Assembly (NCBI GenBank): GCA_016214555.1
Contig: JACROF010000008.1
Coordinates: 1-47,140, forward strand
Source: Candidatus Levyibacteriota bacterium
Lineage (GTDB): Bacteria; Patescibacteriota; Microgenomatia; Levybacterales; UBA12049
DNA length: 47,140 nucleotides
Reading direction: 5' to 3'
The notes beneath the pieces are model-generated. The model saw only the letters and a program-made list of their open reading frames with translations, did no database searches and was not told where the DNA came from. Numbering within the stretch: the stretch's first letter is position 1; every line of letters begins with the position of its first letter. Both the position numbers and the translations under genes were made by a program. Positions 14,426 through 28,509 of the stretch are shown in pieces.

Positions 14426-14477
14426 CCGTTTCGGCCTTTCAGGCCTCATCAGGCCCCGATGGACATCGGGACGACGG
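14426..14477 (-). ncRNA. Type III hammerhead ribozyme motif HH1
   Basis: Minus strand reads CCGUC|GUCCCGAU-GUCC-AUCGGGGC CUGAUGA GGCC-UGAAA-GGCC GAA ACGG. Full core. Helix I is 8 bp, helix II 4 bp, helix III 4 bp. Its 3' end lies 11 nt before the ATG at 14414. Confidence 0.8.
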
Positions 14478-14554
14478 GATCAGGGATGGCATAAGCCATT
14501 TCGCTTGTCAGCGTCTCCCGCACCCACTTTTTCCACCGCAATTGGTGGTGAAGT

Positions 14555-14581
14555 GGGCGCGGTCAACTAGTGACCGCGCCC
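14555..14581 (-). other. 11-bp GC hairpin after the stop of 14610-15233
   Basis: GGGCGCGGTCA-ACTAG-TGACCGCGCCC. A second hairpin follows at 14523-14557. No U-tract. Confidence 0.7.
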
Positions 14582-14609
14582 TCATGATACTATTCAGTTG
14601 TTCCCGACT

Positions 14610-15233
14610 CTATTGAAGTCGGAAGGTCGCCTCGCAAACCTGCGGAAGCGTTGCAGGGCCAGTGACCTCGGACGCATTGAAGCAGTCCCAGACCTGGCCA
14701 TTCACGCCTGCTGGAATGGAGAGACTGACGGGCGAGCCCGTCTTGAGATGGACCCCCTTGGGGTTCATCACGCCATTTGCCTCCTTGAGGCCTTCGAATC
14801 GGCCTTCGCAGGGTCCAGCCGTGCACCAAGCTTGCGCCTGATCTGCGGTGAGGATCTGCGGAGCGCCCGAGCCGTTACTCGTGATCGTGGTCGTCGTATT
14901 GATCGTCGACTGACTCTGAATCACGGTGCTTCCGGCATTGCTGTCGGTAGTGCCACCAGTGGTAGTCTGTCCGACGGTCGCACCAGACGTGTTGGAAGCA
15001 GCCTGCTGGCTGCTTCCGCCCGTGGGTTCATTGCTGTCACCAGTGACCGGCTCTTCGCCGGTCTTGGCCGCTATCAACTTATCGAGAGCGTTTCCAACGC
15101 CTCCCCAGTTGGTGATGCGGGCGTTACTGTCCATGCTGAACAGCCCACCATCGAAAGTCTGCACCAGGCCTGTGAAGACCATGAGTGCAACGACGATGAC
15201 TGTGACCCATCCGAGACCTTTCTTGATGTCCAC
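14610..15233 (-). CDS. Secreted or membrane-anchored protein with a Cys-containing C-terminal domain (paralog of 17692-18546)
   Basis: GTG start with AAAGGAAA upstream. Signal-anchor GWVTVIVVALMVFTGLV, an S/T/G-rich linker, and a C-terminal WCT..C.GR.E.L...NP.GV.LK.G...P.G...WD...VTG...CE domain. Confidence 0.7.
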   Translation of the reverse strand: MDIKKGLGWVTVIVVALMVFTGLVQTFDGGLFSMDSNARITNWGGVGNALDKLIAAKTGEEPVTGDSNEPTGGSSQQAASNTSGATVGQTTTGGTTDSNAGSTVIQSQSTINTTTTITSNGSGAPQILTADQAQAWCTAGPCEGRFEGLKEANGVMNPKGVHLKTGSPVSLSIPAGVNGQVWDCFNASEVTGPATLPQVCEATFRLQ

Positions 15234-15294
15234 GAGAGATTTCCTTTCGTTGTTTTCTAAGCACGCTAGCTGCGCACTTTAAGAAAGAACAAGC

Positions 15295-16989
15295 CTATGA
15301 GTCAAGTGGTGGGGTGTTGTTGTCCCATGCCTTTTTGAGGCGCCACTTGATTCGTTCGCCAAGCGTGGCGGATTTGACCGGAGGCGAAGAGGGCTTCTGG
15401 GCCTCCTTCACAGTATCCGTCTCTCTCGAGCGAGGTCGTGCGAGTGTTTCCATCACTCTTTCGTCGGATTCTTCATCCAGAACGAAGGGGCGTGAAGGAA
15501 TCTGCTCGAGCATCCTTCCCACAGTTCTGTCGTCCAGAGTAGGGGGTGATGGAGCAGGCGTTTCTTGAGGCTTTGGGCCTCTTGAGACATAGACGGTGAT
15601 GTCTTCTCTCAGAAGACCACGGACGTAGGATATGACCTCGCCTCGTGGTATCAATTGAGAGAATTGACGTTGAACCGTTGCATTCCAGCCGTGACGCTCG
15701 AGATACTCAAGCGCTTTCAGCTCATCCATGCCGACGATATTGTCCAGATTGCCAGTTGGCTCCGGATCGTCAACGAAGATACGAGCTGGCCTGTCACCGA
15801 CCATATTTGGCCTTGTGAGCCAGTCAGGTAGACGCGTGGCGGGAGTCTCCTCAGAATTTCCCGATCCGTCTGGATCGGAATCATCGAGAAGATTATCCCA
15901 CGGGTTGGTGGCGGGTGCAGTTTGAACACCGACTATCAGGACAGCCTGTCCTGGTTCTTCGCCGAGTTCAGCGCTCAGGACTTTGCCGTCATTTTCTGTT
16001 GAGCTTTCGCTTCCTAGAGAGGTGACGGTCCATCTTCGATCTTCGAGATACTGCGTTGCGCCCGCTTCCGTCATGGAAACGACCGTTTTTAGATCTCTTG
16101 GATCAAATTGTGGCTCCGGTTTTGCAACCGTTACCACGTGTGCCTCGCCTGTGTCGGGCGGCTGGAAGGGAAAGATTGGATCTCCTCCTCCCAGTGGAAC
16201 GATGACTGGCTCCGGCGTTGCCGGAGCTGTAGCAGGTGTTGCCATGTCGCTTTCATCTCCTTGGGGTGCTTGTGGCACCCAGCGTTCAATGAATGTGTCA
16301 TAGTGACGATCGAACTCGTGGTTGACGAGCTCTTCCTCAGAGAGAAAAAGCCAGTTTGAACACGAGGGAAAGTCACATCGCCAGGTCTGGACAGTGGGGT
16401 GGTCCGCGATCACGTGAGCATTACGGCCCTTGTAATCTTTGAACATTCTCCAACATCCGTGAATGCGACACCGCAAGCGGTGCGATCCGACCTGGTCCTT
16501 GGTGATGCCGTGGTTGTTTTTGAGGTGCGTATCCTCGAAGTCCGGGTGGAATTCGATTTTGCATCCTTCAACACGACATTTCATCTTGGACGGTGGAGCA
16601 GGAGGTGGCGGATCAGGAGCTCTCTTGTCCGGCGGATTGCTCTCACCGGGGAAAAGATCGCTCAGATCAACCATGTGTTGAGCAGCAAGCTCGCGAAGTT
16701 TTTCCAGCGACAGTGTTGCCGACGGTTTGACTTCGTTACGAGTTCCTTGCCTGATTCGCTCACGAATGAGCGAACGCTTGTCCTGCTTTGCCACAGGGGT
16801 ATCTTCCAACGCTTTCGCGTTGGGGTCAATGTCTGTGACGTCCACATTGAGTGAGGCTGCGGTGACGATGAGCGTTTCAAGACTCATCGCTTCGAGGATT
16901 GCCTCATTTGCCTCGGGGTCTTTCGCGCAAATTCGCGCGATAACCTCGCTTTTGGTTTTCTGATACTGTTCATCGTGACGAGCAGCCAT
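15295..16989 (-). CDS. Orphan 564-aa protein with three tandem C2H2-type zinc-finger motifs and two PASTA-like C-terminal repeats
   Basis: The ORF track extends to 17100. I prefer the ATG at 16989 (MAARHDE) with AAGGAGG 6 nt upstream. Three C-x4-C-x11-13-H-x4-H units lie within about 100 aa. Confidence 0.7.
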   Translation of the reverse strand: MAARHDEQYQKTKSEVIARICAKDPEANEAILEAMSLETLIVTAASLNVDVTDIDPNAKALEDTPVAKQDKRSLIRERIRQGTRNEVKPSATLSLEKLRELAAQHMVDLSDLFPGESNPPDKRAPDPPPPAPPSKMKCRVEGCKIEFHPDFEDTHLKNNHGITKDQVGSHRLRCRIHGCWRMFKDYKGRNAHVIADHPTVQTWRCDFPSCSNWLFLSEEELVNHEFDRHYDTFIERWVPQAPQGDESDMATPATAPATPEPVIVPLGGGDPIFPFQPPDTGEAHVVTVAKPEPQFDPRDLKTVVSMTEAGATQYLEDRRWTVTSLGSESSTENDGKVLSAELGEEPGQAVLIVGVQTAPATNPWDNLLDDSDPDGSGNSEETPATRLPDWLTRPNMVGDRPARIFVDDPEPTGNLDNIVGMDELKALEYLERHGWNATVQRQFSQLIPRGEVISYVRGLLREDITVYVSRGPKPQETPAPSPPTLDDRTVGRMLEQIPSRPFVLDEESDERVMETLARPRSRETDTVKEAQKPSSPPVKSATLGERIKWRLKKAWDNNTPPLDS

Positions 16990-17353
16990 GCTGCCTCCTT
17001 TTTGATAAGTGCGAACGCACGAAAATTCGTGCGTAAAACTATAGCAGGAAGAAAGATGACATAACTCTGGATGATACTGCGACATGCAGTGATATTCCAA
17101 GAGCCGAAAACAATCCAGCTTTGCTGGACTCTATTCGACTCTTGGGTTGAATAGTATATGAGGTAGTAAAGATTTCTCTTTACACCCTGATCTGTTAATG
17201 TGCGTTATTTGTTTTGTTTTATCCACCTGATCTTACTTCAAAGCTTTTCAGCCCGCCTAGCCGGCGAGGCTGGAACTATTCGTTCACGCTTTGAAGAGCG
17301 ATTATCGGCGGATTGTATACTTTTGAAAAATTAACTTAATAATTTTTGTATAC

Positions 17354-17481
17354 AAAAAAAAACCGGCCTTACGGTCGGGGAGAATAGCTGGCAGCTGTAT
17401 ATTGGTCTTGTCTATGGGTGCAGTCCAACTATTTTCTCCAACCCTCCGATGTAATTTCGGAGTTGTGTTCATACACAAGTA
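17354..17481 (-). ncRNA. Promoter-proximal structured leader or small RNA ending in a U9 tract
   Basis: Begins about 7 nt after the -10 of promoter 17488-17516. Hairpins UUGUGU/ACACAA and CUCCGA/UCGGAG, a 9-bp helix AAUAGUUGG/CCAGCUAUU, then CCGACC-GUAA-GGCCGG (one A.C mismatch) and UUUUUUUUU. Confidence 0.4.
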
Positions 17482-17487
17482 GGGAGA

Positions 17488-17516
17488 AGTATAGCAAATA
17501 TTATAGGATATGTCAA
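17488..17516 (-). promoter_or_regulatory. Sigma70-like promoter, conserved cassette copy a
   Basis: TTGACA-TATCCTATAATATTTGC-TATACT with a 17-nt spacer. Confidence 0.6.
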
Positions 17517-17567
17517 GCTGACTGAGGCTGTATCTAGCCTCGAAGTGTTATCACTCCTATAGGGTGT

Positions 17568-17632
17568 GTCATTTCGCCCGCCCTCGTAATAGCAAGGTCG
17601 AGGCTCATCAGGTCGCCTAAGGCGACGATGAC
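17568..17632 (-). ncRNA. Type III hammerhead ribozyme motif HH2
   Basis: GUCAUC|GUCGCC-UUA-GGCGAC CUGAUGA G-CCUCG-ACCUUGCUAUUA-CGAGG-GCGGG-C GAA AUGAC. Helix III GUCAU/AUGAC is compensatory relative to the other copies. Cleavage triplet is AUC. Confidence 0.75.
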
Positions 17633-17655
17633 CTGCAATAAGGTCTAGATTGAGT

Positions 17656-17682
17656 GTGAGGCCTGGCAGAGCCAGGCCTCAC
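17656..17682 (-). other. 12-bp GC hairpin after the stop of 17692-18546
   Basis: GTGAGGCCTGGC-AGA-GCCAGGCCTCAC. Lies 23 nt upstream (in the minus sense) of HH2. Confidence 0.75.
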
Positions 17683-17691
17683 ATATGGGGA

Positions 17692-18546
17692 TCACGACGA
17701 TCTCGTCGCGATCTTGCGGATACTTCCTTCGCAGGCGTTGGCGACCATGGTCGCGGTCTGACCGGTCACGGTGGCGGTTCCGTCCCAGATCTCAAACGTA
17801 TACCCGTCGGGCACGTTCATTTGGAAACAGGAGTCACCAGCCTTGAGCTTGACGCCGGCCGGATTGGGATTTCCATCCGACTCGACGAGCTGCTCGAGGC
17901 GACCGCTGCAGTCTGGCGTACACCACGAAGCGACAGTCGTCACGTTGAGGGTGTTGCCGCTGCCGGTATCCGTGGCTCCGTTCGTGCCGCCTTCGGTCGT
18001 ACCGGAGAGGGGTGCAGCCAGGAGCGTTCCGTCACCGCAGGTCGCGGGATCGGAGGTGAGCACGGGTCGGTAGTAGACGTCGAACTGCGGATCGCGGGCT
18101 CGCGTGTTATTGGGATAATCGGCCCACTTGCCGAATTCGACTTCCTTGGGGTAGAGAGCACATACGTCCCAGACGGCGTCGCCGGCGGGGAAGGATGGCT
18201 TGTACCTGAAGGTACCGCCGTCACCCATGACGGTCTGGCCGTTGCCATTTTGGACGGTAACGGGGAGGTCGCCCCCCTCGTCGATCGTGCAAACGAAGTC
18301 TGCCGGGCACGTGAGCTGTACGTCGTTTGGCGCGCTGCGCCAGGTCCACGTACAGGGTTCGGTACCGAGAAAGACCACGTTCTGGCCGATCGCGGCCTGA
18401 GCCCAGCTGTCAGCTGGACACGTCACCGGCGATGCCGGGGGCGTTGAGGTGTCCTGTGCTTGAGCCGAACTGAATCCGGCCATGCCGAGTGCGATCGCAA
18501 CGATTGCGATCAAGAAAACGAACCGTGGAATCTTCTTGTTTCCCAT
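17692..18546 (-). CDS. Secreted Cys-rich protein (paralog of 14610-15233 in the C-terminal domain)
   Basis: I prefer the ATG at 18546 with AAGGAGGG upstream. Signal peptide MGNKKIPRFVFLIAIVAIALGMAGFSSAQA. The C-terminal ~70 aa aligns with 14610-15233. Confidence 0.75.
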   Translation of the reverse strand: MGNKKIPRFVFLIAIVAIALGMAGFSSAQAQDTSTPPASPVTCPADSWAQAAIGQNVVFLGTEPCTWTWRSAPNDVQLTCPADFVCTIDEGGDLPVTVQNGNGQTVMGDGGTFRYKPSFPAGDAVWDVCALYPKEVEFGKWADYPNNTRARDPQFDVYYRPVLTSDPATCGDGTLLAAPLSGTTEGGTNGATDTGSGNTLNVTTVASWCTPDCSGRLEQLVESDGNPNPAGVKLKAGDSCFQMNVPDGYTFEIWDGTATVTGQTATMVANACEGSIRKIATRSS

Positions 18547-18697
18547 TGATGCCCTCCTTGGGCTTGTGTCCCTTGCGGGACTCGACGAAGAAAAACGAAA
18601 AGTTGATCGATGCGCACCTCCTTTGTGTGCTTGATATATCCGAAAGGAAATAACAAGTAGTACACTCAATGAATGCATCCGACCTCCACGAGTTGTG

Positions 18698-18780
18698 AAG
18701 ATACCGGAAAACGCGCACTGTAGAGGCATAGTATTCCTGCCCTAAACGCTATACATGCAGTACGCGATTTCCGGTATCTT
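18698..18780. repeat. Long inverted repeat (17/18-bp arms, 47-nt loop) in the leader/promoter region of 17692-18546
   Basis: AAGATACCGGAAAACGCG (18698-18715) versus CGCGATTTCCGGTATCTT (18763-18780). A possible TTAACA-18-TAAGAT promoter at 18776-18805 overlaps the right arm. Confidence 0.6.
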
Positions 18781-18947
18781 ATAAAGACCTTATTGCAGTT
18801 GTTAAGGTTCGATTTATCTGATAATTCTCACAAAATGAGAACAATAAGATATCCAGTCATAAAACTATGAGTGGGGAAAAGAGCAGAAAGAGGGGATTGC
18901 GAGGAGGTGCTTTCAGTGCGCTTTTCTCCAGCCATATTGTAAAAGGC

Positions 18948-19712: not shown

Positions 19713-19753
19713 ATCTTTTAGAGCAAAAATTTTGCCTCAAAATTGATCTGTGA

Positions 19754-19782
19754 ACTATATCATATCTTATAGGATATGTCAA
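19754..19782 (-). promoter_or_regulatory. Sigma70-like promoter, conserved cassette copy b
   Basis: TTGACA-TATCCTATAAGATATGA-TATAGT with a 17-nt spacer. Confidence 0.6.
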
Positions 19783-19944: not shown

Positions 19945-19967
19945 TTTTAGGGGTGAAACCCCTAAAA
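19945..19967. repeat. REP-like hairpin TTTTAGGGG-TGAAA-CCCCTAAAA
   Basis: Same 17-nt core TAGGGGTGAAACCCCTA as the hairpins flanking the RAYT gene at 40.8-41.5 kb. Confidence 0.75.
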
Positions 19968-20013
19968 GTTTAATATAATTGCCGAATTCTGATGAGGAGA
20001 TTTCCTCAGCAAA

Positions 20014-20060
20014 ATATGGCAAGGCACTCAAGAGTGGGGAGAGAATGAACCTTGCCATAT
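20014..20060 (-). terminator. 11-bp inverted repeat at the downstream edge of the large GC-rich block (terminator-like)
   Basis: ATATGGCAAGG (20014-20024) and CCTTGCCATAT (20050-20060) with a 25-nt loop. No clean U-tract. Confidence 0.35.
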
Positions 20061-20094
20061 AATTGCAGCGCATGCTGCGAGATGGAAGAGGTAA

Positions 20095-20376
20095 TTATTT
20101 CCTTTCTGTACTATTAGATTCTGCGTGATCGAGCCTGCGAGCCTTGCGGCCCACAAGCTTGATAGCAATGATTGCCAGCGTTGCTCCAGAGAGCATGGAG
20201 GCTCCAAGTCCAATCTGAAAGCCTGTAGTGTCCCATGAGCCACCTTCCCATGGATGCTGTGCCCATAGTATGAGCACGGTCCAGAAAAGCGCTATGCTTG
20301 CTACGCAGACCAGGAAAGGGTGTTTCCTGAGTCTTTCAGCCAGAACCAGATCATACTCGTCTCTGAAAAGTTTCAC
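20095..20376 (-). CDS. Hypothetical small membrane protein (2 TM)
   Basis: 93 aa. GTG start with AAGGA upstream. Two hydrophobic spans. Confidence 0.55.
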   Translation of the reverse strand: MKLFRDEYDLVLAERLRKHPFLVCVASIALFWTVLILWAQHPWEGGSWDTTGFQIGLGASMLSGATLAIIAIKLVGRKARRLDHAESNSTERK

Positions 20377-20420
20377 GCTCGATTCCTTTCGTGTGAACGA
20401 AGATGGGCCGAGCGGGGAGT

Positions 20421-20723
20421 TTATCCGGTGCGAGCCGGATGGCTTACAAGGCCTTTTTTCGTTTTTCTCTCCCTTTCTCTCAGGAGGTTTTGGCCGAACT
20501 CGATTTCTCGTCGAGTGGCTTTTCGCTCAAAACGAAATGATGTGCTTTCAAAGAAGGGGTGGAGATGTGCATCAAATATATCCTGCGTGTGCAGCATGCG
20601 CAAAACGACTAAGCCCTCTTTTTCAAAAATAGCGACAATATGCAGCTCATGCCCGAAGGCATTCTGAATGATGTTGCCTTCCCGGATATGCTCCGGGAGC
20701 GATCGCTCTGGTTTTTCAGCCAT
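20421..20723 (-). CDS. Hypothetical protein, translationally coupled to 20716-20952
   Basis: Preferred start is MAEKPERS at 20723. ATGGCTGA overlaps the upstream stop. Confidence 0.5.
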   Translation of the reverse strand: MAEKPERSLPEHIREGNIIQNAFGHELHIVAIFEKEGLVVLRMLHTQDIFDAHLHPFFESTSFRFERKATRREIEFGQNLLRERERKTKKGLVSHPARTG

Positions 20724-20952
20724 TTTCTGGCTCAGATCTGAGCATGTCTGACTGACCACATGTCAGCTTGACGTGCTGTTGTCTTGCGAGGCGCTGTGCC
20801 TCAGCTAAGGATATCCTTGATGCGCCATGTCCACGATTTCGTCCTCTTCTATTGACGAGAACCTCCTCTCCATCGCGGGCGAAGAGTTCCAGCACTGTGT
20901 GAGTGTCGTCGGGGTCATGGACCTCGATAGGCGGATCAATATGTTGAAACAT
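20716..20952 (-). CDS. Hypothetical 78-aa protein
   Basis: Preferred start is MFQHIDPP at 20952, with AAGGAG 8 nt upstream. Confidence 0.5.
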   Translation of the reverse strand: MFQHIDPPIEVHDPDDTHTVLELFARDGEEVLVNRRGRNRGHGASRISLAEAQRLARQQHVKLTCGQSDMLRSEPENG

Positions 20953-21186
20953 GAGCTCTTCTCCTTGCGGCACAAGCCACGCTAAAATTTCCGGCAGAAA
21001 ATGTGGATGCCGGGCAATCGAGCACGAAACAATTCCTGCCCGGAAAGCGCTTCGTACTCAGTTGCCCGCACCACATGTGTCTAATAGTAATGAGTGCCTT
21101 GTTAAAGTACCTCTCTTTAGTGATGAATGAGCAGGGTAGGTATCTACGCTCCTCATTGAGCACTAAGGGTCTAGCATTATAGCAAG

Positions 21187-21215
21187 TGACAAATGTTTAT
21201 GCCTGACATTTGTCA
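21187..21215. promoter_or_regulatory. Operator-like perfect 10-bp inverted repeat next to a TATAAT box
   Basis: TGACAAATGT-N9-ACATTTGTCA. A minus-strand TATAAT lies at 21176-21181. Confidence 0.45.
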
Positions 21216-21243
21216 AACCAATAGTAATTACTTGCCAAACTTT

Positions 21244-21310
21244 TCTGTTTCGCTCTGTGATCTTTCGATCGAGGACTCATCAGGCCCCGATACTCATCGG
21301 GACGACAGAT
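21244..21310 (-). ncRNA. Type III hammerhead ribozyme motif HH3
   Basis: AUCUGUC|GUCCCGAU-GAGU-AUCGGGGC CUGAUGA GUCCUCGAUC-GAAA-GAUCACAGAGC GAA ACAGA. Confidence 0.8.
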
Positions 21311-21336
21311 GGGGTGGGGGCTTTCGCCCCCACCCC
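21311..21336 (-). other. GNRA-capped 11-bp GC hairpin abutting HH3
   Basis: GGGGUGGGGGC-GAAA-GCCCCCACCCC on the minus strand. Identical copies at 24844-24869 and 25268-25293. Confidence 0.85.
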
Positions 21337-21354
21337 GGAAAAAAAAGACAAGTG

Positions 21355-21654
21355 CTAGTGCGATAGCGCGTACAGTTGTCCCAAGCGGGACTTGATCTGC
21401 TCGCGAAGCGCGATCATGATGTGAGCGAGGCCTTCGAGCAGGACGTTGGTAACCCGATTGAGCAGGTCATTGTCGTCCGCCGGAAGTCTTGCCCCGTCCA
21501 TGGTCGTAATCACGGCCTGCTCATCTCGCAGGTTGGTCGAGAAGTGAAGAGCCTCGTCGAGGCGAGCTTTCGCCGCCTTGAGGCTCCGCATTCGGACGTT
21601 TATTTCGTCCCGCGAAATGGCCGAAACCTGAATTGCTGTGATGGCCGTATTCAT
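21355..21654 (-). CDS. Hypothetical 99-aa protein (helical/coiled-coil-like)
   Basis: Preferred start is MNTAITAI at 21654, with AAGGAGG upstream. The ORF track extends to 21771. Confidence 0.55.
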   Translation of the reverse strand: MNTAITAIQVSAISRDEINVRMRSLKAAKARLDEALHFSTNLRDEQAVITTMDGARLPADDNDLLNRVTNVLLEGLAHIMIALREQIKSRLGQLYALSH

Positions 21655-21785
21655 CCGGCCACCTCCTTGTTGGCATACTTTTCCTACCCTCGTAGAAAAA
21701 GACTGTGCAGTGCCAAGCATCAGCGACAAACCTTGAGGGGTAGGCTTATCGCTAATTCTTGGATAAAGCATTTGTTAAAGATGGG

Positions 21786-21813
21786 CTTGGTGCGGGATTT
21801 CTCCCGCACCAAG
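21786..21813 (-). other. 12-bp GC hairpin after the small basic ORF
   Basis: CTTGGTGCGGGA-TTTC-TCCCGCACCAAG, followed on the minus strand by CCCAUCUUUAACAAAUG with no ribozyme. Confidence 0.75.
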
Positions 21814-21827
21814 TGGTGAGACCATGC

Positions 21828-21944
21828 TCAGTATCTGTCAGGCTCGTCGTTGGGCTTCTTGCCCGATTTCTGCGTGATCCCCAGGCGTTTTCGTGCCTGG
21901 GCACGCTCGTGCCGACGTTTTGCCTTTCGAGCTTTTCTGGCCAT
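21828..21944 (-). CDS. Hypothetical 38-aa highly basic peptide (below the ORF-track cutoff)
   Basis: Hand translation gives MARKARKAKRRHERAQARKRLGITQKSGKKPNDEPDRY. AAAGGAG lies 4 nt upstream of the ATG. Confidence 0.45.
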   Translation of the reverse strand: MARKARKAKRRHERAQARKRLGITQKSGKKPNDEPDRY

Positions 21945-22147
21945 GGTACTCCTTTGGCTGTTTATTGCCCAAAACCATTTCAGGCAATACTAGCGTTTGC
22001 CAGGCGCCAGCAGAAAATCTCGAAAGATTCGGGACTTGCTGCTAGCACCTGATACTTGTCTTTATGTAAATGTGCTTGTGACTTTTTTCAGGATAGAGCG
22101 CTATCCTCAAGAAAATCAGCATTCGGTTTTCGAAAAAGGGAATTGTC

Positions 22148-22171
22148 GGGGTCCCGCCAAGGCGGGACCCC
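22148..22171 (-). other. GC hairpin GGGGTCCCGCC/GGCGGGACCCC after the stop of 22203-22532
   Basis: 11-bp arms. A U-run occurs only about 10 nt further downstream, so this is a weak terminator at best. Confidence 0.6.
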
Positions 22172-22202
22172 AGGGATGAAAGCGCATCAATCGTAGAGGC
22201 GA

Positions 22203-22532
22203 TTAGCTTACTCCTGCGAGGAGAAGATCGCCTGTTCCGAGCGGTGCGTTGAAAAGACACGTGAGGCACTCTGCGAAGTGCCTTCTCACAAATGGGTCAG
22301 AGCAGTTTCCTGCTCGAGCCAAAAGTCGCGCAAGCGTGCAGTCTTCGCTCTCCCCTTGATCGGGGATGACCTCGAACTGGACCTCGCGTTTTTTCGGAGC
22401 TTTTGCCAGCCGCCTTATGGCAGGCTGGATCAGCTCTGGTGGCAGACGGTCGTACAGAATTCCTCGGTACTCAATCCTCAATGGGCTTTCTCCTTTTGCT
22501 TGTGCCTTTTCCAGAACGTCTGGAGTTGGCAC
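22203..22532 (-). CDS. Hypothetical 109-aa protein
   Basis: GTG start with no obvious SD. The ORF is co-oriented with its neighbours. Confidence 0.45.
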   Translation of the reverse strand: MPTPDVLEKAQAKGESPLRIEYRGILYDRLPPELIQPAIRRLAKAPKKREVQFEVIPDQGESEDCTLARLLARAGNCSDPFVRRHFAECLTCLFNAPLGTGDLLLAGVS

Positions 22533-22554
22533 CCGAATGCTGTGTTAAAGTTCG

Positions 22555-22616
22555 CTGTTTCGCCCGCCCTCGTAATAGCAAGGTCGAGGCTCATCGGTCC
22601 CGCTACGCGGGACCGC
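22555..22616 (-). ncRNA. Decayed hammerhead-like element HH4* (probably inactive)
   Basis: Same helix II as HH2/HH7 and same helix I as HH7. However the core reads CCGAUGA (U4 to C) and the cleavage triplet is CGG instead of GUC. It shares the 3' flank AGCGAACUUUAACACAGCAUUCG with HH5. Confidence 0.5.
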
Positions 22617-22629
22617 CCTATGAAAACGA

Positions 22630-23040
22630 CTACTCGTCGTTGTTGACGATGATCTCGCCAACCATGCCCACCAACTCGTGGGGGACACAGACGTAGTGAT
22701 ACGTCCCAGGAATCTGGAACGTATAGCTCCAGCTCTCGCCGGGTTGCAAAAGTCCTGAGTCCCAGGCTTCTGCTCCAACGGGAAGCAAGACAAGATTCGG
22801 GTTACGAACCTTGTTCGCGTCCGTAGTGACGCTGTGGACCAGTTCCTTGCTGACATTTTTCCAGGTGACGGTGTCACCGGGACGAATGGTCAGCGTGTGT
22901 GGGTCAAAGGTCATGTCGTTGGTCATTCTGACCACGTAGTCCTTTGGACCGGAGTCGTCCTGGGTGAGCCTGACGTAGGCAACGGTGCCTAGTAGGGCAG
23001 CCCAGAGCACAATGATCAAAACGATTTTTGTATTGCGCAT
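22630..23040 (-). CDS. Cupredoxin (plastocyanin/amicyanin/halocyanin-like blue copper protein) with N-terminal signal-anchor
   Basis: Preferred start is MRNTKIV at 23040, with GGAGG upstream. Type-1 Cu ligand pattern: H (VHSVTTD) plus C-x2-H-x4-M (YVCVPHELVGM). Confidence 0.8.
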   Translation of the reverse strand: MRNTKIVLIIVLWAALLGTVAYVRLTQDDSGPKDYVVRMTNDMTFDPHTLTIRPGDTVTWKNVSKELVHSVTTDANKVRNPNLVLLPVGAEAWDSGLLQPGESWSYTFQIPGTYHYVCVPHELVGMVGEIIVNNDE

Positions 23041-23083
23041 TTTTGCCTCCAAGACTTCAAATCGAATGCTGTGTTAAAGTTCG

Positions 23084-23133
23084 CTGTTTCGGCCTTTCAG
23101 GCCTCATCAGTTCCGATATCAATCGGAAGACAG
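23084..23133 (-). ncRNA. Type III hammerhead ribozyme motif HH5
   Basis: CUGUC|UUCCGAU-UGAU-AUCGGAA CUGAUGA GGCC-UGAAA-GGCC GAA ACAG. Confidence 0.8.
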
Positions 23134-23157
23134 AAGGTGTTGTGGGAAGGTTGGTTG

Positions 23158-23181
23158 CCGGGGGCGCATCTGCGCCCCCGG
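23158..23181 (-). other. GC hairpin after the stop of 23188-23610
   Basis: CCGGGGGCGCA/TGCGCCCCCGG. Lies 24 nt upstream of HH5. Confidence 0.75.
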
Positions 23182-23187
23182 CTGAGA

Positions 23188-23610
23188 TCAATCATCTGTC
23201 TCGGATCGAATGTCGTCGTCCAAGTCCTCAAGAGAGATCCCTTCCTTCGCAAGCCCATGCAAGATCTCGCCACCGTTCCATTTTCTGGAACAGGGGAGCG
23301 ATGAGAGCCGCTCGTGAAGGTCCTCGAGCTGAGCCATTAGACCTCTCGAATGCGTCAGGTTGGCGCGAATTCGCCCCAGCCGCCGCGGATCGATGTCTTT
23401 GGCTAGGGAGCCATTCTGGAGATCCTCGATCGTCTCCCGGAGATCCTCGATCGCATCATCGACCTCCTCGTGGGAGATCTCTTGATCGTCGCGATCGCGA
23501 GCGAGAAGGTCAGCGACTGTGTCATGCGAATGGAAGATGTCCTCCCATCGCCTCAGCCCCTCAAGGGGCGCGACTTTTTCGAAATCGTCCGCTGTTGAAC
23601 CCGTAGACAT
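23188..23610 (-). CDS. Hypothetical acidic 140-aa protein
   Basis: ATG with GAAAGG upstream. The overlapping plus-strand ORF 23028-23606 is Arg-rich and looks like an antisense artefact. Confidence 0.55.
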   Translation of the reverse strand: MSTGSTADDFEKVAPLEGLRRWEDIFHSHDTVADLLARDRDDQEISHEEVDDAIEDLRETIEDLQNGSLAKDIDPRRLGRIRANLTHSRGLMAQLEDLHERLSSLPCSRKWNGGEILHGLAKEGISLEDLDDDIRSETDD

Positions 23611-23629
23611 ATGATTGCCTTTCGCGTTT

Positions 23630-23655
23630 TATATTCTGTCACGTGACAGAATATA
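23630..23655. promoter_or_regulatory. Perfect 26-bp palindrome (operator-like) 20 nt upstream of the 23610 start codon
   Basis: TATATTCTGTCAC|GTGACAGAATATA. Confidence 0.5.
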
Positions 23656-23788
23656 GCAATGGTACTCGCCAGTACCAGCATGAAAGACACTAGGGTATAG
23701 CGCCCTTTATGTTGGTACTAACGTAACCTATATTATACAACACCTTGTTAAAGCTCGTCCTCCTTCGCATAAAGCCTCGGAGGACAAG

Positions 23789-23850
23789 CTGTTTTCATCT
23801 TGCCCTGCAGAGCAGGGAAGAATCATCAGGTCGCCTATGGCGACTAACAG
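23789..23850 (-). ncRNA. Type III hammerhead ribozyme motif HH6 (variant)
   Basis: CUGUUA|GUCGCC-AUA-GGCGAC CUGAUGA UUCUUCCCUGC-UCU-GCAGGGCAAGAU GAA AACAG. The core is intact and the cleavage triplet is UUA. Helix II closes with U.U instead of the usual G-C. Confidence 0.6.
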
Positions 23851-23872
23851 ATACAGGGGGCAAGTAAGAGTT

Positions 23873-23898
23873 GGCGGGTGGGAATGACCCCACCCGCC
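23873..23898 (-). other. 10-bp GC hairpin after the stop of 23907-24566
   Basis: GGCGGGTGGG-AATGAC-CCCACCCGCC. Lies 22 nt upstream of HH6. Confidence 0.75.
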
Positions 23899-23906
23899 GG
23901 AGTAAC

Positions 23907-24566
23907 CTAGTCGACCGCCTCGGCCCACAATGTTACGGCACTCCGTTTCGTGATGGTTCCTGGAAAATCTGAGCCCCCTTCACGATCGAGGAGCGCGTGC
24001 TGGGGTACGGTGAAACACGAAGTGTCTCCCCGATAGATCCAGCCATTGGGCGTGCCGCGGTGACGAATCCACCCATCAGTGTTCCCGCCGACGATGGTCG
24101 ACAGGACGTTTGGGTTGATCTCGGCAAGAGCGGGTAGCGTGCCCATCTCTTGAGCCTCGCATCGGCCGGTGATTTCGCGGACCGCCTGGTCTTTGAAATT
24201 TTTGGCCTCGTCCTTGCCCAGCTCGATATAGAGCTTGGTCGCGAATCGGGTGAACTCGACCGTTTGTCGAGTTTGTGAGATGATTTTTGCTCCATGAGCG
24301 TAGCCGGTATAGAAGCCGGTGCCGGTCATGGTGATTCCGACGAGACCCGCAAGCCCTACCGCAGCAACCTTCTTGAGTATGCTGCCTCGTTGTCGGGCAT
24401 TCTGAGCAACCGACTCGCCCGTCTCCGGAAATTCCGGAGCGATGTCGTCCTCCTCAGCTGGAAGCTGGGGAAGAGCGGGTTGACCGCCGGCGAAAAAGCT
24501 GGCGACGATACCGAAAACGAGCAGAGCACTGATCGCGGAAAAAATCTTTCCAACAATGCGTAGCAT
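23907..24566 (-). CDS. Hypothetical membrane-anchored 219-aa protein
   Basis: Preferred start is MLRIVGKIFSAISALLVFGIVASFF at 24566, with AAAAGGAG upstream. The ORF track extends to 24701 through the repeat. Confidence 0.55.
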   Translation of the reverse strand: MLRIVGKIFSAISALLVFGIVASFFAGGQPALPQLPAEEDDIAPEFPETGESVAQNARQRGSILKKVAAVGLAGLVGITMTGTGFYTGYAHGAKIISQTRQTVEFTRFATKLYIELGKDEAKNFKDQAVREITGRCEAQEMGTLPALAEINPNVLSTIVGGNTDGWIRHRGTPNGWIYRGDTSCFTVPQHALLDREGGSDFPGTITKRSAVTLWAEAVD

Positions 24567-24622
24567 CGATCTCTCCTTTTGGGATAGAATTCGCGACGAT
24601 CTGTCGCGAAGCTTGCTTTTAG

Positions 24623-24690
24623 CCAGCTGCTGCACGGTGACTTTGGCACGGGCAGAAATAGCACCGTGTTCACGAACATGCAGAAGCTGG
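24623..24690 (-). repeat. 68-bp perfect repeat, copy A (candidate structured 5'-leader element)
   Basis: Identical to 26139-26206. The outer stem CCAGCU/AGCUGG is extended by different flanking pairs in the two copies. Confidence 0.8.
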
Positions 24691-24777
24691 CATAAAGCCA
24701 TAGATAGGTTTTTCTTAAAACCCCCTGTATGTAAAAGAACTCCCTCCTTTGCTCTTGCGAGCCTGGAGGACTATACG

Positions 24778-24843
24778 TCTGTTTCGCCCGCCCTCGCAAT
24801 AGCAAGGTCGAGGCTCATCAGTCCCGCTAAGCGGGAGACAGAT
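24778..24843 (-). ncRNA. Type III hammerhead ribozyme motif HH7
   Basis: AUCUGUC|UCCCGC-UUA-GCGGGA CUGAUGA G-CCUCG-ACCUUGCUAUUG-CGAGG-GCGGG-C GAA ACAGA. Confidence 0.78.
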
Positions 24844-24869
24844 GGGGTGGGGGCTTTCGCCCCCACCCC
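24844..24869 (-). other. GNRA-capped 11-bp GC hairpin abutting HH7
   Basis: GGGGUGGGGGC-GAAA-GCCCCCACCCC. Starts 7 nt after the stop of 24877-25173. Confidence 0.85.
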
Positions 24870-24876
24870 GGGATAG

Positions 24877-25173
24877 CTACAAGCGACGGATTACTTTTCC
24901 GTCTTTGATCCAATGTCCATCAGCGATGCTGTGGACTTCGGGATTGTCGAGTCGAGGCTGCTCGATTCGACCCTGGGCTCGTAGTTCGCGAACCAGCTCA
25001 GCGGCTTCGACGGGAAAGTCCCGCCAATAGCTTCGCTGGTACATCTTGACGAGCTCGGCCCAGTCCTCTTCGGTGCGGGCCGTCGTGCCCGCTACGATCT
25101 TCTCGACGTCCTCCCGGGCAACACGCCCTCTGAGGATGTCTTGAACGCAGAAAGAAAGACTGCGACCAATCAT
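24877..25173 (-). CDS. Hypothetical 98-aa protein
   Basis: ATG with AAGGAGG 6 nt upstream. Lies between HH8 and HH7. Confidence 0.6.
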   Translation of the reverse strand: MIGRSLSFCVQDILRGRVAREDVEKIVAGTTARTEEDWAELVKMYQRSYWRDFPVEAAELVRELRAQGRIEQPRLDNPEVHSIADGHWIKDGKVIRRL

Positions 25174-25196
25174 GCTAACCTCCTTTTAAAGAACTT

Positions 25197-25267
25197 TCTG
25201 TTTCGCTCTCATCCGCCTGTTGGCGGAAATGAGCTCATCAGGTCCGATGTTCATCGGGACGACAGAT
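25197..25267 (-). ncRNA. Type III hammerhead ribozyme motif HH8
   Basis: AUCUGUC|GUCCCGAU-GAAC-AUCGGAC CUGAUGA GCUCAUUUCCGCC-AACA-GGCGGAUGAGAGC GAA ACAGA. Its 3' end lies 23 nt before the ATG at 25173. Confidence 0.8.
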
Positions 25268-25293
25268 GGGGTGGGGGCTTTCGCCCCCACCCC
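25268..25293 (-). other. GNRA-capped 11-bp GC hairpin abutting HH8
   Basis: Identical to 21311-21336 and 24844-24869. Preceded by an 18-bp palindrome TTGTAGCAGCTGCTACAA that spans the stop of 25308-26084. Confidence 0.85.
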
Positions 25294-25307
25294 GGTTGTA
25301 GCAGCTG

Positions 25308-28499: not shown

Positions 28500-28509
28500 G
28501 AGATCAAGC

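What the first reader, a model, noticed from the sequence alone, without database searches (positions are those of the whole stretch)
14426..25293. Seven intact type III hammerhead ribozyme motifs punctuate a co-directional gene string
On the minus strand I read seven sequences with the complete hammerhead core in type III topology. The order is helix III 5' strand, NUH cleavage site, helix I hairpin, CUGAUGA, helix II hairpin, GAA, helix III 3' strand. They lie at 14426-14477, 17568-17632, 21244-21310, 23084-23133, 23789-23850, 24778-24843 and 25197-25267.

The core nucleotides are invariant while the helices are kept by different sequences in different copies:
- Helix I: GUCCCGAU/AUCGGGGC, GUCGCC/GGCGAC, UCCCGC/GCGGGA, UUCCGAU/AUCGGAA.
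- Helix II: GGCC/GGCC, CCGCC/GGCGG, GAUC/GAUC, CCCUGC/GCAGGG.
- Helix III: UCUGU/ACAGA, GUCAU/AUGAC, CUGUU/AACAG.

That is the covariation expected of functional ribozymes. All seven sit in intergenic gaps and are co-oriented with every credible ORF between 14.4 and 28 kb. Seven copies in about 11 kb is far denser than isolated bacterial hammerheads. I cannot tell from the sequence alone whether this arrangement has been described before.
Basis: partly seen in the sequence, partly recalled or inferred. Interest (0 to 1): 0.92.

Follow-up and report, generated by a model that had tools for sequence, protein, structure and literature searches.

The report
Hammerhead ribozyme array between island genes
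Seven small self-cutting RNA motifs (type III hammerhead ribozymes) and one decayed copy sit between the genes of a foreign, GC-rich island in an uncultured bacterium. They most likely chop its long transcripts into single-gene messages, an arrangement known in kind since 2011 but unusually dense here and missed by standard annotation.

Summary
All seven minus-strand sites have the complete hammerhead core (CUGAUGA…GAAA, U16.1, H17) in type III topology at the stated coordinates, and the predicted cleavage sites are correct. A strict descriptor finds six of them, against 0.03 expected per window.

A covariance model built mostly from hammerheads of other genomes ranks the seven sites plus one new relic (22555-22615) as the top eight hits in the window. 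Rfam's own threshold finds none.

Five copies look canonical. HH3 has an imperfect stem II, and HH5 has a U·U pair next to the core.

All copies lie after stop codons in a ~14-kb island (GC 0.52 against 0.41 elsewhere). Six of the seven follow a strong GC hairpin that has no U-tract.

An orthologous fragment from another sample keeps both modules it covers in place, with different helices.

Best explanation: co-transcriptional self-cleavage splits polycistronic RNA into mRNAs with a hairpin 3' end and a ribozyme-capped 5'-OH end.

Gene-flanking hammerhead clusters in prophage-like DNA were described in 2011, so this is a new member of a known kind. The same hammerhead family forms arrays of up to nine copies, mostly in Patescibacteria genomes. 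No searchable paper notes that.

The parts
14426..14477 (-). HH1, a canonical type III hammerhead. Cleavage falls after C14473. It ends 11 nt before the ATG of the host glycosyltransferase gene (13629-14414).
   Evidence: R1 47.2 bits (this copy was in the training set); also present in Logan contig L001
17568..17632 (-). HH2, a canonical hammerhead with a long stem II insert. Cleavage falls after C17627. It lies after the 345-aa gene and its hairpin, just upstream of promoter 17516-17488.
   Evidence: R1 30 bits, E 2e-6; stems I and II appear in the minimum-energy fold
21244..21310 (-). HH3. The core is intact but stem II is imperfect (G-C, U-G, then mismatches before a GAUC/GAUC tip). Cleavage falls after C21304.
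   Evidence: R1 22.7 bits, E 3e-4
22555..22615 (-). Decayed eighth hammerhead. Its core reads CCGAUGA (U4 changed), residue 1.1 is lost, helix III has a mismatch, and there is no upstream hairpin. Its stem II is identical to that of HH2. Probably inactive.
   Evidence: (15.3 bits, E 0.05)
23084..23133 (-). HH4, a compact canonical hammerhead. Cleavage falls after C23129. It lies 43 nt upstream of the cupredoxin start codon, which has a GGAGG ribosome-binding site.
   Evidence: (Rfam 34.4 bits); R1 59.5 bits (this copy was in the training set)
23789..23850 (-). HH5. The core is intact, the cleavage triplet is UUA (cut after A23845), and the 10.1-11.1 pair is U·U. Activity is doubtful or weak.
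   Evidence: (14.6 bits, E 0.08); present in Logan contig L201
24778..24843 (-). HH6, a canonical hammerhead with a long stem II insert. Cleavage falls after C24837.
   Evidence: (Rfam 34.9 bits); R1 41 bits, E 1e-9; the ortholog in L200 holds the same position
25197..25267 (-). HH7, a canonical hammerhead with one bulge in stem I and a long stem II. Cleavage falls after C25261. It lies 23 nt upstream of the start codon of the 98-aa gene, which has an AAGGAGG ribosome-binding site.
   Evidence: R1 23.2 bits, E 2e-4
25268..25293 (-). GC-rich hairpin GGGGUGGGGGC-GAAA-GCCCCCACCCC that abuts HH7. It has no U-tract and is the proposed 3'-end cap of the upstream mRNA. Identical copies lie at 24844-24869 (before HH6) and 21311-21336 (before HH3).
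   Evidence: -31 to -38 kcal/mol for the 60-nt upstream stretches that contain it
23873..23898 (-). Hairpin GGCGGGUGGGG-UCAU-UCCCACCCGCC upstream of HH5.
   Evidence: -26.1 kcal/mol for the 60-nt upstream stretch
23157..23182 (-). Hairpin GCCGGGGGCGC-AGAU-GCGCCCCCGGC upstream of HH4.
   Evidence: -28.9 kcal/mol for the 60-nt upstream stretch
17655..17683 (-). Hairpin UGUGAGGCCUGGC-UCU-GCCAGGCCUCACA upstream of HH2.
   Evidence: -26.5 kcal/mol for the 60-nt upstream stretch
14555..14581 (-). Hairpin GGGCGCGGUCA-CUAG-UUGACCGCGCCC just after the stop codon of the 207-aa gene, upstream of HH1.
   Evidence: read directly
26318..26346 (-). Sigma-70-like promoter (TTGACA-17-TACTAT with an extended -10 TG). 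It is the likely start of the transcript that carries HH7 to HH3. Similar promoters lie at 28749-28777, 28016-28044, 27026-27055, 19754-19782 and 17488-17516.
   Evidence: (repeat D3)
20095..26084 (-). Main high-GC gene block: 258 aa, HH7, 98 aa, HH6, 219/264 aa, HH5, 140 aa, HH4, cupredoxin, relic, 109 aa, small ORFs, 138 aa, HH3, then three small ORFs. The products are mostly membrane-anchored or secreted proteins without known relatives.
14478..18729 (-). Two further high-GC blocks. The first is the 345-aa secreted protein followed by a hairpin and HH2. The second is the 601-aa protein and the 207-aa protein followed by a hairpin and HH1. A low-GC promoter, short transcript and terminator segment (17100-17520) separates them.

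Best explanation
The seven motifs are self-cleaving type III hammerhead ribozymes carried by a horizontally acquired island (~14.4-28.8 kb) that mostly encodes membrane or secreted proteins.

**Proposed mechanism**
- The island is transcribed on the minus strand from host-type sigma-70 promoters.
- As RNA polymerase passes each intergenic module, the ribozyme folds and cuts after its NUH site.
- Helix III is short and open (4-5 bp), so the upstream piece falls off.
- The upstream mRNA ends in a GC-rich hairpin followed by a 2',3'-cyclic phosphate.
- The downstream mRNA starts with a 5'-OH and keeps the folded ribozyme body just ahead of its ribosome-binding site.

**Predicted outcome**
- One long transcript becomes single-gene messages whose stability and translation are uncoupled from their neighbours.
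- HH2 and HH1 also cut read-through RNA at the ends of two blocks.
- HH1 gives the host glycosyltransferase operon a defined leader.

**Shown versus inferred**
- Shown: motif integrity, motif placement, conservation of position with changed helices, and recurrence of the hairpin-ribozyme module elsewhere.
- Inferred: cleavage itself, the promoters, and the effects on stability and translation.
For: **Motif integrity.** All seven copies have every invariant core residue, and the stems fold as expected.

**Selection for the fold.**
- L200 is a fragment from a different sample whose two genes are 67% and 86% identical to the window's at the protein level. It keeps a hairpin plus hammerhead at both intergenic positions.
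- The hairpin arms, stem I and stem II in L200 differ from the window's, and the pairing is compensated throughout.
- Across the nine aligned copies, 98% of cells are paired and 10 of 14 pairs change on both sides. Slid controls give 31-47% paired.

**Decay where the constraint is lost.** The one copy with a mutated core has also lost residue 1.1, one helix III pair and its upstream hairpin.

**Placement.**
- Every copy follows a stop codon.
- HH7, HH4 and HH1 lie 23, 43 and 11 nt before a start codon.

**Upstream hairpins.**
- Hairpins without U-tracts precede six of the seven copies within 60 nt. The folds of those 60-nt stretches run from -26 to -38 kcal/mol.
- The same holds for 197 family members elsewhere. 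The mean fold energy of the upstream 45 nt is -11.8 kcal/mol, against -6.3 for shuffled sequence and -4.3 for the downstream 45 nt.
- Eight of nine copies in L086 have such a hairpin.

**Transcription.** Strong minus-strand promoters are present.

**Precedent.**
- Clustered hammerheads that flank single genes were shown to cleave in vitro, and one three-ribozyme arrangement also in vivo. They were proposed to process long transcripts into gene-length mRNAs (PMC3088659; PMC6765202).
- A halovirus hammerhead 13 nt before a start codon coincides with a mapped 5' end.
Against: - No cleavage or transcript data exist for this locus.
- No copy reaches Rfam's gathering score.
- HH5 (U·U at 10.1-11.1) and HH3 (imperfect stem II) may be slow or dead.
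- Minimum-energy folds favour an alternative CAUC/GAUG pairing over the short helix III in several copies.
- HH2 is followed by a promoter rather than a gene, so 'insulation of the next cistron' does not apply to it.
- The benefit of cleavage (stability, stoichiometry) is untested in any bacterial system (PMC6765202).
- Pair counts on alignments A2 and A5 lean towards the structure, because those sequences were selected by or fitted to it.
Confidence: 0.65

Rival explanations
1. The hairpin-plus-hammerhead unit is a selfish, recombining repeat. It spreads into intergenic gaps of mobile DNA and is kept for its own propagation or as a recombination joint between gene cassettes. Under this view, any effect on expression is a by-product.
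For: - The copies are mosaics of shared parts:
  - the same hairpin precedes HH3, HH6 and HH7;
  - the same stem II is found in HH2, HH6 and the relic;
  - the same stem II is found in HH1 and HH4;
  - the same stem I is found in HH2 and HH5.
- The ortholog L200 has other combinations of parts at the same two positions.
- The flanked genes are unrelated between arrays.
- The 98-aa gene family occurs in phage contigs that have no hammerheads.
- Assemblies break at these repeats.
Against: - The catalytic core stays intact in seven of eight copies although the helices turn over, so the cleaving fold is under selection.
- No reverse transcriptase, transposase or integrase lies in the island.
- Placement is orderly (stop codon, hairpin, ribozyme, ribosome-binding site) rather than scattered.
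- This view is compatible with the best explanation rather than exclusive of it.
Confidence: 0.15
2. Cleavage is conditional, and the ribozymes act as switches. Alternative pairing, a protein or an ion condition would decide whether a junction is cut, so the island's genes would be regulated at individual junctions.
For: - In HH2, HH3 and HH6 the CAUC at or next to the 5' strand of helix III pairs with GAUG of the core in the minimum-energy fold.
- Helix III is short.
- Non-canonical copies (HH5, HH3) could be tuned for partial cleavage.
- Perreault et al. discuss salt-dependent variants.
Against: - Thermodynamic folds ignore tertiary contacts and co-transcriptional folding.
- No ligand-binding domain or conserved extra element is attached.
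- The compact family consensus looks like a constitutive minimal ribozyme.
Confidence: 0.1
3. Pairs of neighbouring hammerheads excise gene-sized RNAs that are religated into circles, as in retrozymes and viroid-like RNAs. An example would be the 424-nt piece between the HH7 and HH6 cuts, which carries the 98-aa ORF.
For: - HH7 and HH6 have identical helix III strands (UCUGU/ACAGA), and so do HH4 and HH3 (CUGU/ACAG). The 3' end of an excised piece could therefore dock on the ribozyme body at its own 5' end.
- Helix III is CUGU/ACAG in 48 of 72 family members that my search pattern did not select.
Against: - The junctions HH6 to HH5 and HH5 to HH4 are not compatible in helix III (read).
- Perreault et al. 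looked for circular or spliced products from clustered hammerheads and found none.
- No RNA ligase or reverse transcriptase gene lies in the window.
Confidence: 0.05
4. The motifs are inactive look-alikes or chance matches.
For: - None reaches Rfam's gathering score.
- Two copies are non-canonical.
Against: - Six strict descriptor hits were found, against 0.03 expected.
- All copies are on one strand, in one island and in intergenic gaps.
- A model trained on other genomes recovers them.
- The ortholog shows compensatory changes.
- Most members of this family elsewhere also score below Rfam's cut-off, so the threshold is simply too strict for the family.
Confidence: 0.03

Closest known systems
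Clustered hammerhead ribozymes flanking genes in prophage-like regions (Perreault et al. 2011, PMC3088659; reviewed in PMC6155905 and PMC6765202)
   Same: - Several co-oriented hammerheads lie close together.
- They flank single genes or short gene blocks whose identities are not constant and are mostly small proteins of unknown function.
- They sit in horizontally acquired DNA.
- They were proposed to process long transcripts into gene-length mRNAs.
   Different: - The arrangements tested there had three ribozymes. Here there are seven plus a relic in 11 kb.
- All copies here are type III, whereas type II is described there as the very common bacterial form.
- No integrase or phage structural gene lies in this island.
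- A GC hairpin precedes most copies.
- The host is probably a Patescibacteria-like bacterium.
Rfam RF00008 Hammerhead_3
   Same: Same catalytic core, same order of helices (III open, I and II capped), and an NUH cleavage site.
   Different: - The best scores are 34.9 and 34.4 bits, against a gathering score of 48.5. The other five copies are not reported even at E up to 10.
- Helix III is shorter than in the Rfam consensus.
- Stem II carries 20-nt or longer inserts in four copies.
Compact type III hammerhead family of Patescibacteria MAGs and viral contigs, found here
   Same: - Consensus CUGUC, a 6-bp stem I with a UGUGUA-like loop, CUGAUGAG, a 4-bp stem II with an A-rich tetraloop, then CGAAACAG.
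- Co-oriented arrays of 3-9 copies per 8 kb.
- The arrays lie in segments that are as GC-rich as, or richer than, their surroundings.
- An upstream hairpin is common.
- HH4 and HH1 fit this consensus closely (59.5 and 47.2 bits).
   Different: - 44 of 118 such genome loci carry a TrmB-like regulator gene next to the array. The window has none.
- Several window copies have enlarged stem II and triloop stem I variants.
Synthetic ribozyme insulators such as RiboJ (Lou et al. 2012; cited from my own knowledge)
   Same: A type III hammerhead sits in the 5' leader, cuts off upstream RNA and leaves a defined, structured 5'-OH leader before the ribosome-binding site. This is the analogy for how the array works.
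   Different: - Those are engineered parts derived from a plant satellite RNA.
- The window copies share no sequence with them beyond the core.
- The window copies are natural, as shown by a diverged ortholog in another sample.
Retrozymes and viroid-like circular RNAs with type III hammerheads (PMC7761336)
   Same: The same ribozyme type, with repeated copies that bracket a segment of RNA.
   Different: - Those yield non-coding or replicating circles in eukaryotes or RNA agents.
- Here the ribozymes lie between bacterial protein-coding genes in DNA.
- Only two of four neighbouring junctions have compatible helix III strands.
- There is no evidence for circles.

Membership tests
Hammerhead ribozyme, type III | Invariant core: C3 U4 G5 A6 N7 G8 A9, G12 A13 A14, the A15.1-U16.1 pair, and H17 (not G) at the cleavage site | tested here: met
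   All seven copies read CUGAUGA…GAAA with U16.1 and with H17 = C (six copies) or A (HH5). The relic at 22555-22615 reads CCGAUGA and fails.
Hammerhead ribozyme, type III | Three helices around the core, with stems I and II closed by loops and helix III open at the 5' and 3' ends | tested here: met
   Descriptor scan, covariance-model alignments, and stems I and II in the minimum-energy folds. Helix III is 4-5 bp including A15.1-U16.1.
Hammerhead ribozyme, type III | Standard base pairs directly next to the core (1.1-2.1, 10.1-11.1, 15.1-16.1). This is the acceptance rule of Perreault et al. 2011. | tested here: met
   Met in HH1, 2, 3, 4, 6 and 7. Not met in HH5, where 10.1-11.1 is U·U. The rule is quoted.
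Hammerhead ribozyme, type III | Score at or above the Rfam RF00008 gathering threshold (48.5 bits) | tested here: not met
   No hit at gathering thresholds. The best scores are 34.9 and 34.4 bits. In related arrays, 24 of the 25 Hammerhead_3 matches also fall below the threshold, so this reflects the model rather than the motif.
Hammerhead ribozyme, type III | Helices maintained by compensatory changes across homologues | tested here: met
   The L200 ortholog keeps both modules with different helices. In A5, 10 of 14 pairs change on both sides and 98% of cells are paired, against 31-47% in slid controls. In A2, 12 of 14 pairs change on both sides (those sequences were chosen by a pairing descriptor).
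Hammerhead ribozyme, type III | Mg2+-dependent site-specific self-cleavage that yields 2',3'-cyclic phosphate and 5'-OH ends | not testable with these tools
   This needs in-vitro transcription or end-specific RNA sequencing.
Clustered gene-flanking hammerheads of prophage-like elements (Perreault et al. 2011) | Two or more hammerheads within a few kb, co-oriented with the single genes or short gene blocks they flank | tested here: met
   Seven copies plus a relic lie in 10.9 kb, all on the minus strand, each between credible minus-strand ORFs.
Clustered gene-flanking hammerheads of prophage-like elements (Perreault et al. 2011) | Location in a prophage or other integrated mobile element, often near an integrase | tested here: inconclusive
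   For:
- Island GC is 0.52 against 0.41 elsewhere.
- The genes have few or no known relatives.
- The 98-aa gene has homologues in phage contigs.

Against:
- No integrase, no phage structural gene and no PHROG hit of note.
- No flanking direct repeat of 11 nt or more.
- No DNA match to isolated phages.
   tblastn and an HMM of 27 members find nothing in the window.

The most novel reading that the evidence does not exclude
The window's array would be one example of a lineage-wide, undescribed habit. Patescibacteria (CPR) genomes and their mobile DNA would use a compact type III hammerhead, usually preceded by a 3' hairpin, as a standard intercistronic punctuation mark. These marks form arrays of up to nine copies, often next to a TrmB-like regulator, and standard Rfam annotation misses nearly all of them.

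If so, ribozyme cleavage would be a routine way of maturing mRNA in these reduced genomes. Genetically tractable Saccharibacteria would then offer a system for testing what bacterial hammerheads are for.
Probability: 0.35. Interest if true: 0.7.

Novelty: new member of a known kind. Interest (0 to 1): 0.45.

Why it matters
The biological role of bacterial hammerheads is still an open question. PMC6765202 calls it 'largely elusive'.

**What this locus offers**
- It is a clean, dense natural test case with eight junctions in one island.
- Five junctions are canonical, two are weakened and one is dead. Each has a predictable pair of RNA ends and a recurrent 3' hairpin partner.
- Cleavage, mRNA half-life and protein output can therefore be compared junction by junction.

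**What it shows about annotation**
- Rfam's threshold hides almost the whole family.
- In my one capped scan, 58 of 69 taxonomically labelled hits were Patescibacteria.
- I found no paper that links hammerheads with that group.

That wider pattern, rather than the single array, is the part a specialist might find new.

Tried and rejected
- **Rfam at gathering thresholds.** Only rRNA, 5S and tRNA were reported. No twister, pistol, hatchet, HDV-like or other ribozyme family appeared in the island at E up to 10.
- **Type II reading of HH1.** The Hammerhead_II hit has E 0.34. I rejected it in favour of the type III parse (47 bits).
- **Further hammerheads in the window.** There are none. The weak R1 hit at 22083-22136 lacks the core.
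- **Phage identity of the island.**
  - No PHROG or Pfam phage functions were found.
  - No DNA match to 50,697 phage records.
  - The only protein hit was a weak one to a Sinorhizobium jumbo phage.
- **Relatives of the island.**
  - The 258-aa protein has a single homologue among 5.8 billion proteins.
  - It has none in JGI metagenome contigs.
  - Island proteins are absent from all other hammerhead-bearing loci.
- **The 98-aa family.**
  - Its relatives in viral and metagenome contigs carry no hammerheads.
  - Its predicted fold is confident (pLDDT 91) but has no PDB match by sequence or by Foldseek.
- **Integration signatures.** No integrase and no flanking repeats.
- **TrmB-like regulator in the window.** None.
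- **Host taxonomy.** It could not be read from any tool. 'Patescibacteria-like' is an inference from gene content and from where the hammerhead family occurs.
- **Synthetic construct or assembly chimera.** Rejected. Independent assemblies from SRR12113407 match, and a diverged ortholog exists in SRR19053153.

Full report

Yes. On the minus strand, each of the seven stated intervals reads in the same order:
- the 5' strand of helix III;
- U16.1 and H17;
- a stem I hairpin;
- CUGAUGA;
- a stem II hairpin;
- GAAA;
- the 3' strand of helix III.

A strict type III descriptor of my own finds six of the seven sites and nothing else on either strand of the 47-kb window. It requires the core, a pair next to the core in each helix, stem I of at least 4 bp, stem II of at least 2 bp and helix III of at least 3 bp. 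In 300 Markov sequences with the island's composition, the mean was 0.03 hits. HH5 (23789-23850) fails only because its 10.1-11.1 position is U·U.

Rfam gives a weaker picture:
- At gathering thresholds it reports no hammerhead.
- In E-value mode, Hammerhead_3 matches HH6 (34.9 bits, E 2e-4) and HH4 (34.4 bits, E 3e-4), against a cut-off of 48.5 bits.
- No other ribozyme family appears in the island.

**2. A family-specific model**

The pattern TCTGTC…CTGATGAG…CGAAACAGA occurs in 69 viral contigs.

I aligned 46 compact hammerheads from those other genomes with HH1 and HH4 (A2) and built covariance model R1. With filters off over the whole window, its top eight hits are the seven sites plus one more at 22555-22615, all on the minus strand. 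The next hit has E 1.7. HH1 and HH4 match by construction. HH6, HH2, HH7, HH3 and HH5 do not, and they score E 1e-9, 2e-6, 2e-4, 3e-4 and 0.08.

**3. The eighth copy is a relic**

It lies between the cupredoxin gene and the next ORF. Compared with an HH6-like copy:
- it keeps stem I (CCCGC/GCGGG), a stem II identical to HH2's, and GAAACAG;
- its core reads CCGAUGA;
- residue 1.1 is missing and helix III has a G·A mismatch;
- no strong hairpin precedes it.

One copy has decayed in several places at once, while seven keep every invariant residue. That is what purifying selection on the working copies would produce.

**4. Quality of the seven**

- HH1, HH2, HH4, HH6 and HH7 are canonical.
- HH3 has G-C and U-G next to the core, then mismatches before a GAUC/GAUC tip.
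- HH5 has U·U at 10.1-11.1. Perreault et al. rejected hits with such mispairs unless activity was shown. G10.1 also contributes to a metal site (my own knowledge).

Stems I and II appear in the minimum-energy folds of all copies. The short helix III does not, and in HH2, HH3 and HH6 a CAUC/GAUG pairing competes with it.

**5. Evidence for selection on the fold**

L200 is a 1.4-kb contig from a different run. It encodes orthologues of the 258-aa and 98-aa proteins at 67% and 86% identity. Both intergenic positions in L200 hold a hairpin plus a hammerhead, with different sequences:
- The hairpin is GGGCGGGGC…GCCCCGCCC instead of GGGGUGGGGGC…GCCCCCACCCC.
- At the HH7 position, stem I is UCCCGAU/AUCGGGA and stem II is a short GGCC/GGCC.
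- At the HH6 position, the cleavage triplet is GUA and stem I is GUCGCC/GGCGAC.

Across the nine aligned copies, 98% of cells pair and 10 of 14 pairs change on both sides. Slid controls give 31-47% paired. Family-wide, 12 of 14 pairs change on both sides. Both alignments lean towards the structure, because the sequences were selected by or fitted to it.

**6. Surroundings**

The hammerheads are confined to a ~14.4-kb stretch (about 14.4-28.8 kb). Its GC is 0.52, against 0.41 for the rest of the window.

The flanks are ordinary chromosome:
- the end of 23S rRNA, and 5S rRNA;
- ribosomal protein S1, RadA and Rho;
- an M23 peptidase and glycosyltransferases;
- a VirD4-like coupling protein;
- DUF11 and giant LamG surface proteins;
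- an IS200-like transposase.

All ORFs in the island with a coding signature are on the minus strand. Most of them have N-terminal hydrophobic segments (read). Only four domain hits appear: a cupredoxin, a PASTA-like segment, and DUF11 in a low-GC gene. There are no phage functions.

High-GC blocks alternate with low-GC segments. The low-GC segments carry six near-consensus sigma-70 promoters on the minus strand, as well as terminators. There is no integrase and no flanking repeat.

Contigs from SRR12113407 reproduce the host-island junction with HH1, and the HH5-HH4 region. They break at the repeated ribozyme parts. The locus is therefore neither an assembly artefact nor a construct.

**7. 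Anatomy of a junction**

Every copy follows a stop codon. Six of the seven copies (HH2 to HH7) have a GC-rich hairpin without a U-tract within the 60 nt upstream. The folds of those 60-nt stretches run from -26 to -38 kcal/mol. HH1 has a hairpin further upstream, right after the stop codon.

Downstream spacing is short for three copies:
- HH7 lies 23 nt before a start codon with a good ribosome-binding site.
- HH4 lies 43 nt before one.
- HH1 ends 11 nt before the ATG of the host glycosyltransferase operon.

HH2 is followed by a promoter.

The hairpin-ribozyme pairing is general:
- For 197 family members elsewhere, the upstream 45 nt fold to a mean of -11.8 kcal/mol. Shuffled sequence gives -6.3 and the downstream 45 nt give -4.3.
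- Eight of nine copies in L086 have an abutting hairpin.

**8. Mechanism**

I commit to co-transcriptional self-cleavage that punctuates polycistronic RNA. The upstream product ends in a hairpin plus a cyclic phosphate. The downstream product begins with a 5'-OH and carries the ribozyme body ahead of its ribosome-binding site. The short open helix III favours release of the upstream piece.

Predicted products of the main unit (from about 26310 downwards) are about 1050, 424, 992, 716, 1825 and 1300 nt.

This is the role proposed, and partly demonstrated, for clustered prophage hammerheads (PMC3088659; PMC6765202). It is also how synthetic ribozyme insulators work (my own knowledge). Cleavage, transcript starts and the effects on stability are inferred here, not shown.

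**9. Rivals**

- *Selfish recombining repeat.* The part-sharing among copies and the different combinations in L200 support it. It does not explain the intact cores, and it is compatible with the main view.
- *Conditional switch.* It rests only on the predicted alternative pairing.
- *Circularisation.* The junctions HH7 to HH6 and HH4 to HH3 have compatible helix III strands. HH6 to HH5 and HH5 to HH4 do not. Circles were sought and not found in the 2011 study.
- *Chance.* Excluded.

**10. Comparison with what is known**

Gene-flanking hammerhead clusters in prophage-like DNA are established. The differences here are:
- seven copies plus a relic, all type III;
- no recognisable phage or integrase genes;
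- a hairpin partner for most copies;
- a different host group.

**11. The wider pattern**

Of the 80 listed genome hits, 58 are labelled as Patescibacteria lineages, 11 as other taxa and 11 carry no taxon. Arrays of 3-9 co-oriented copies per 8 kb are common among them. All eleven arrays with four or more copies lie in DNA at least as GC-rich as their surroundings, and ten of them are richer.

The flanked ORFs are mostly small and without family assignment. A few are repressor-like, Q-like, Sak4-like or nucleotide kinase genes.

A ~250-aa TrmB-like regulator gene lies next to the array in 44 of 118 genome loci, usually divergent from it. It is absent from all 69 viral loci and from the window.

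Only one of 25 Hammerhead_3 matches in such arrays passes Rfam's cut-off. Full-text searches found no relevant paper that links hammerheads with Patescibacteria, the candidate phyla radiation or Saccharibacteria.

Caveats on this wider pattern:
- It comes from one sequence pattern and a capped scan.
- MAG labels can be wrong.
- The library holds open-access papers only.

**12. Verdict**

The finding is real and correctly interpreted. Its kind is already known, and this locus is a dense, unannotated new member. Interest is moderate. The broader lineage pattern is the more novel lead.

Noticed in passing
Its core reads CCGAUGA, residue 1.1 is lost, and it has no upstream hairpin. Its stem II is identical to that of HH2.
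   Followed up: yes
window 24623-24690 and 26139-26206: A perfect 68-nt direct repeat. On the minus strand it folds into a long imperfect hairpin (-40.8 kcal/mol, z -6.2). It sits in the 5' leaders of the 258-aa gene and of the 219/264-aa gene. Its function is unknown.
   Followed up: partly
window minus strand: 28749-28777, 28016-28044, 27026-27055, 26318-26346, 19754-19782, 17488-17516: Six near-consensus sigma-70 promoters, four of which share a 33-nt core. They lie in low-GC segments between the high-GC blocks. The promoters at 17516 and 26346 are each followed within ~60-130 nt by a terminator-like hairpin, which suggests short transcripts or attenuators.
   Followed up: partly
window 28385-28415 and 28506-28536: Two copies of a motif 121 nt apart. 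On the minus strand it reads ACGCGC, a hairpin, then GGUCAUGCUU, and the stems differ with compensating changes. An 18-aa ORF (MSFLLKTFTRIVADDGHA) with a good ribosome-binding site overlaps one copy.
   Followed up: no
window 15295-17100 (-): The 601-aa island protein has three tandem C-x4-C-x11-13-H-x4-H motifs that resemble C2H2 zinc fingers (seen by eye), plus a PASTA-like segment (Pfam E 3e-7). This is an odd combination for a bacterial protein.
   Followed up: no
window 24877-25173 (-): The 98-aa protein belongs to a small conserved family with motifs GLSLSFC, KIVAGT and EQPRL. The family occurs in phage-like contigs and in a Sinorhizobium jumbo phage. Its predicted fold is confident (pLDDT 91) but has no PDB match. 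Its relatives elsewhere are not flanked by hammerheads.
   Followed up: yes
window 21827-21943 (-): A 38-aa, very basic ORF (MARKARKAKRRHERAQARKRLGITQKSGKKPNDEPDRY) with a strong ribosome-binding site. It lies downstream of a terminator-like hairpin at 22148-22171.
   Followed up: no
window 18948-19712 (-): A low-GC (0.38-0.42) DUF11 surface-protein gene with a signal peptide and a C-terminal membrane anchor. It has its own promoter and sits in the middle of the high-GC island, so the island is a mosaic of foreign and host-like DNA.
   Followed up: partly
window 28840-31608 (+); 40854-41501 (-); 41707-47040 (-): Three notable flanking genes: a VirD4/TraD-like coupling protein divergent from the island, an IS200-like transposase, and a 1777-aa surface protein with seven LamG-type domains. 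This gene content is reminiscent of Patescibacteria, but the taxonomy was not verified.
   Followed up: partly
related loci L082-L199 (e.g. L199 3316-4059, L146 206-976, L169 2365-3075): A ~250-aa TrmB-like HTH gene lies next to hammerhead arrays in 44 of 118 genome loci. It is most often divergent, 0.3-1.4 kb from the first ribozyme. It is absent from 69 viral-contig loci that have the same ribozyme pattern.
   Followed up: partly
L086 441-7387 (a MAG labelled Dehalococcoidia): Nine co-oriented type III hammerheads in 7 kb, eight of them directly preceded by a GC hairpin. This array is denser than the window's.
   Followed up: partly
L112 595-665, L199 1937-2008, L105 6449-6513, L146 4909-4977: tRNA genes lie near two arrays, a tmRNA-like fragment lies inside one array, and a DUF3800-IX RNA lies near another. 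These are hints that some arrays sit in integrated elements.
   Followed up: no
window ~5069 and ~6595, compared with L001: The Logan contig from SRR12113407 is otherwise 99.8-100% identical to the window. It carries extra segments of 66 and 73 nt at these two points, and its gene calls differ there (258 aa against 126 aa, and 273 aa against 251 aa).
   Followed up: no
window HH2, HH3 and HH6 (17568-17632, 21244-21310, 24778-24843): The CAUC at or next to the 5' strand of helix III can pair with GAUG of the catalytic core, and it does so in the minimum-energy folds. This is a possible inactive conformer.
   Followed up: no
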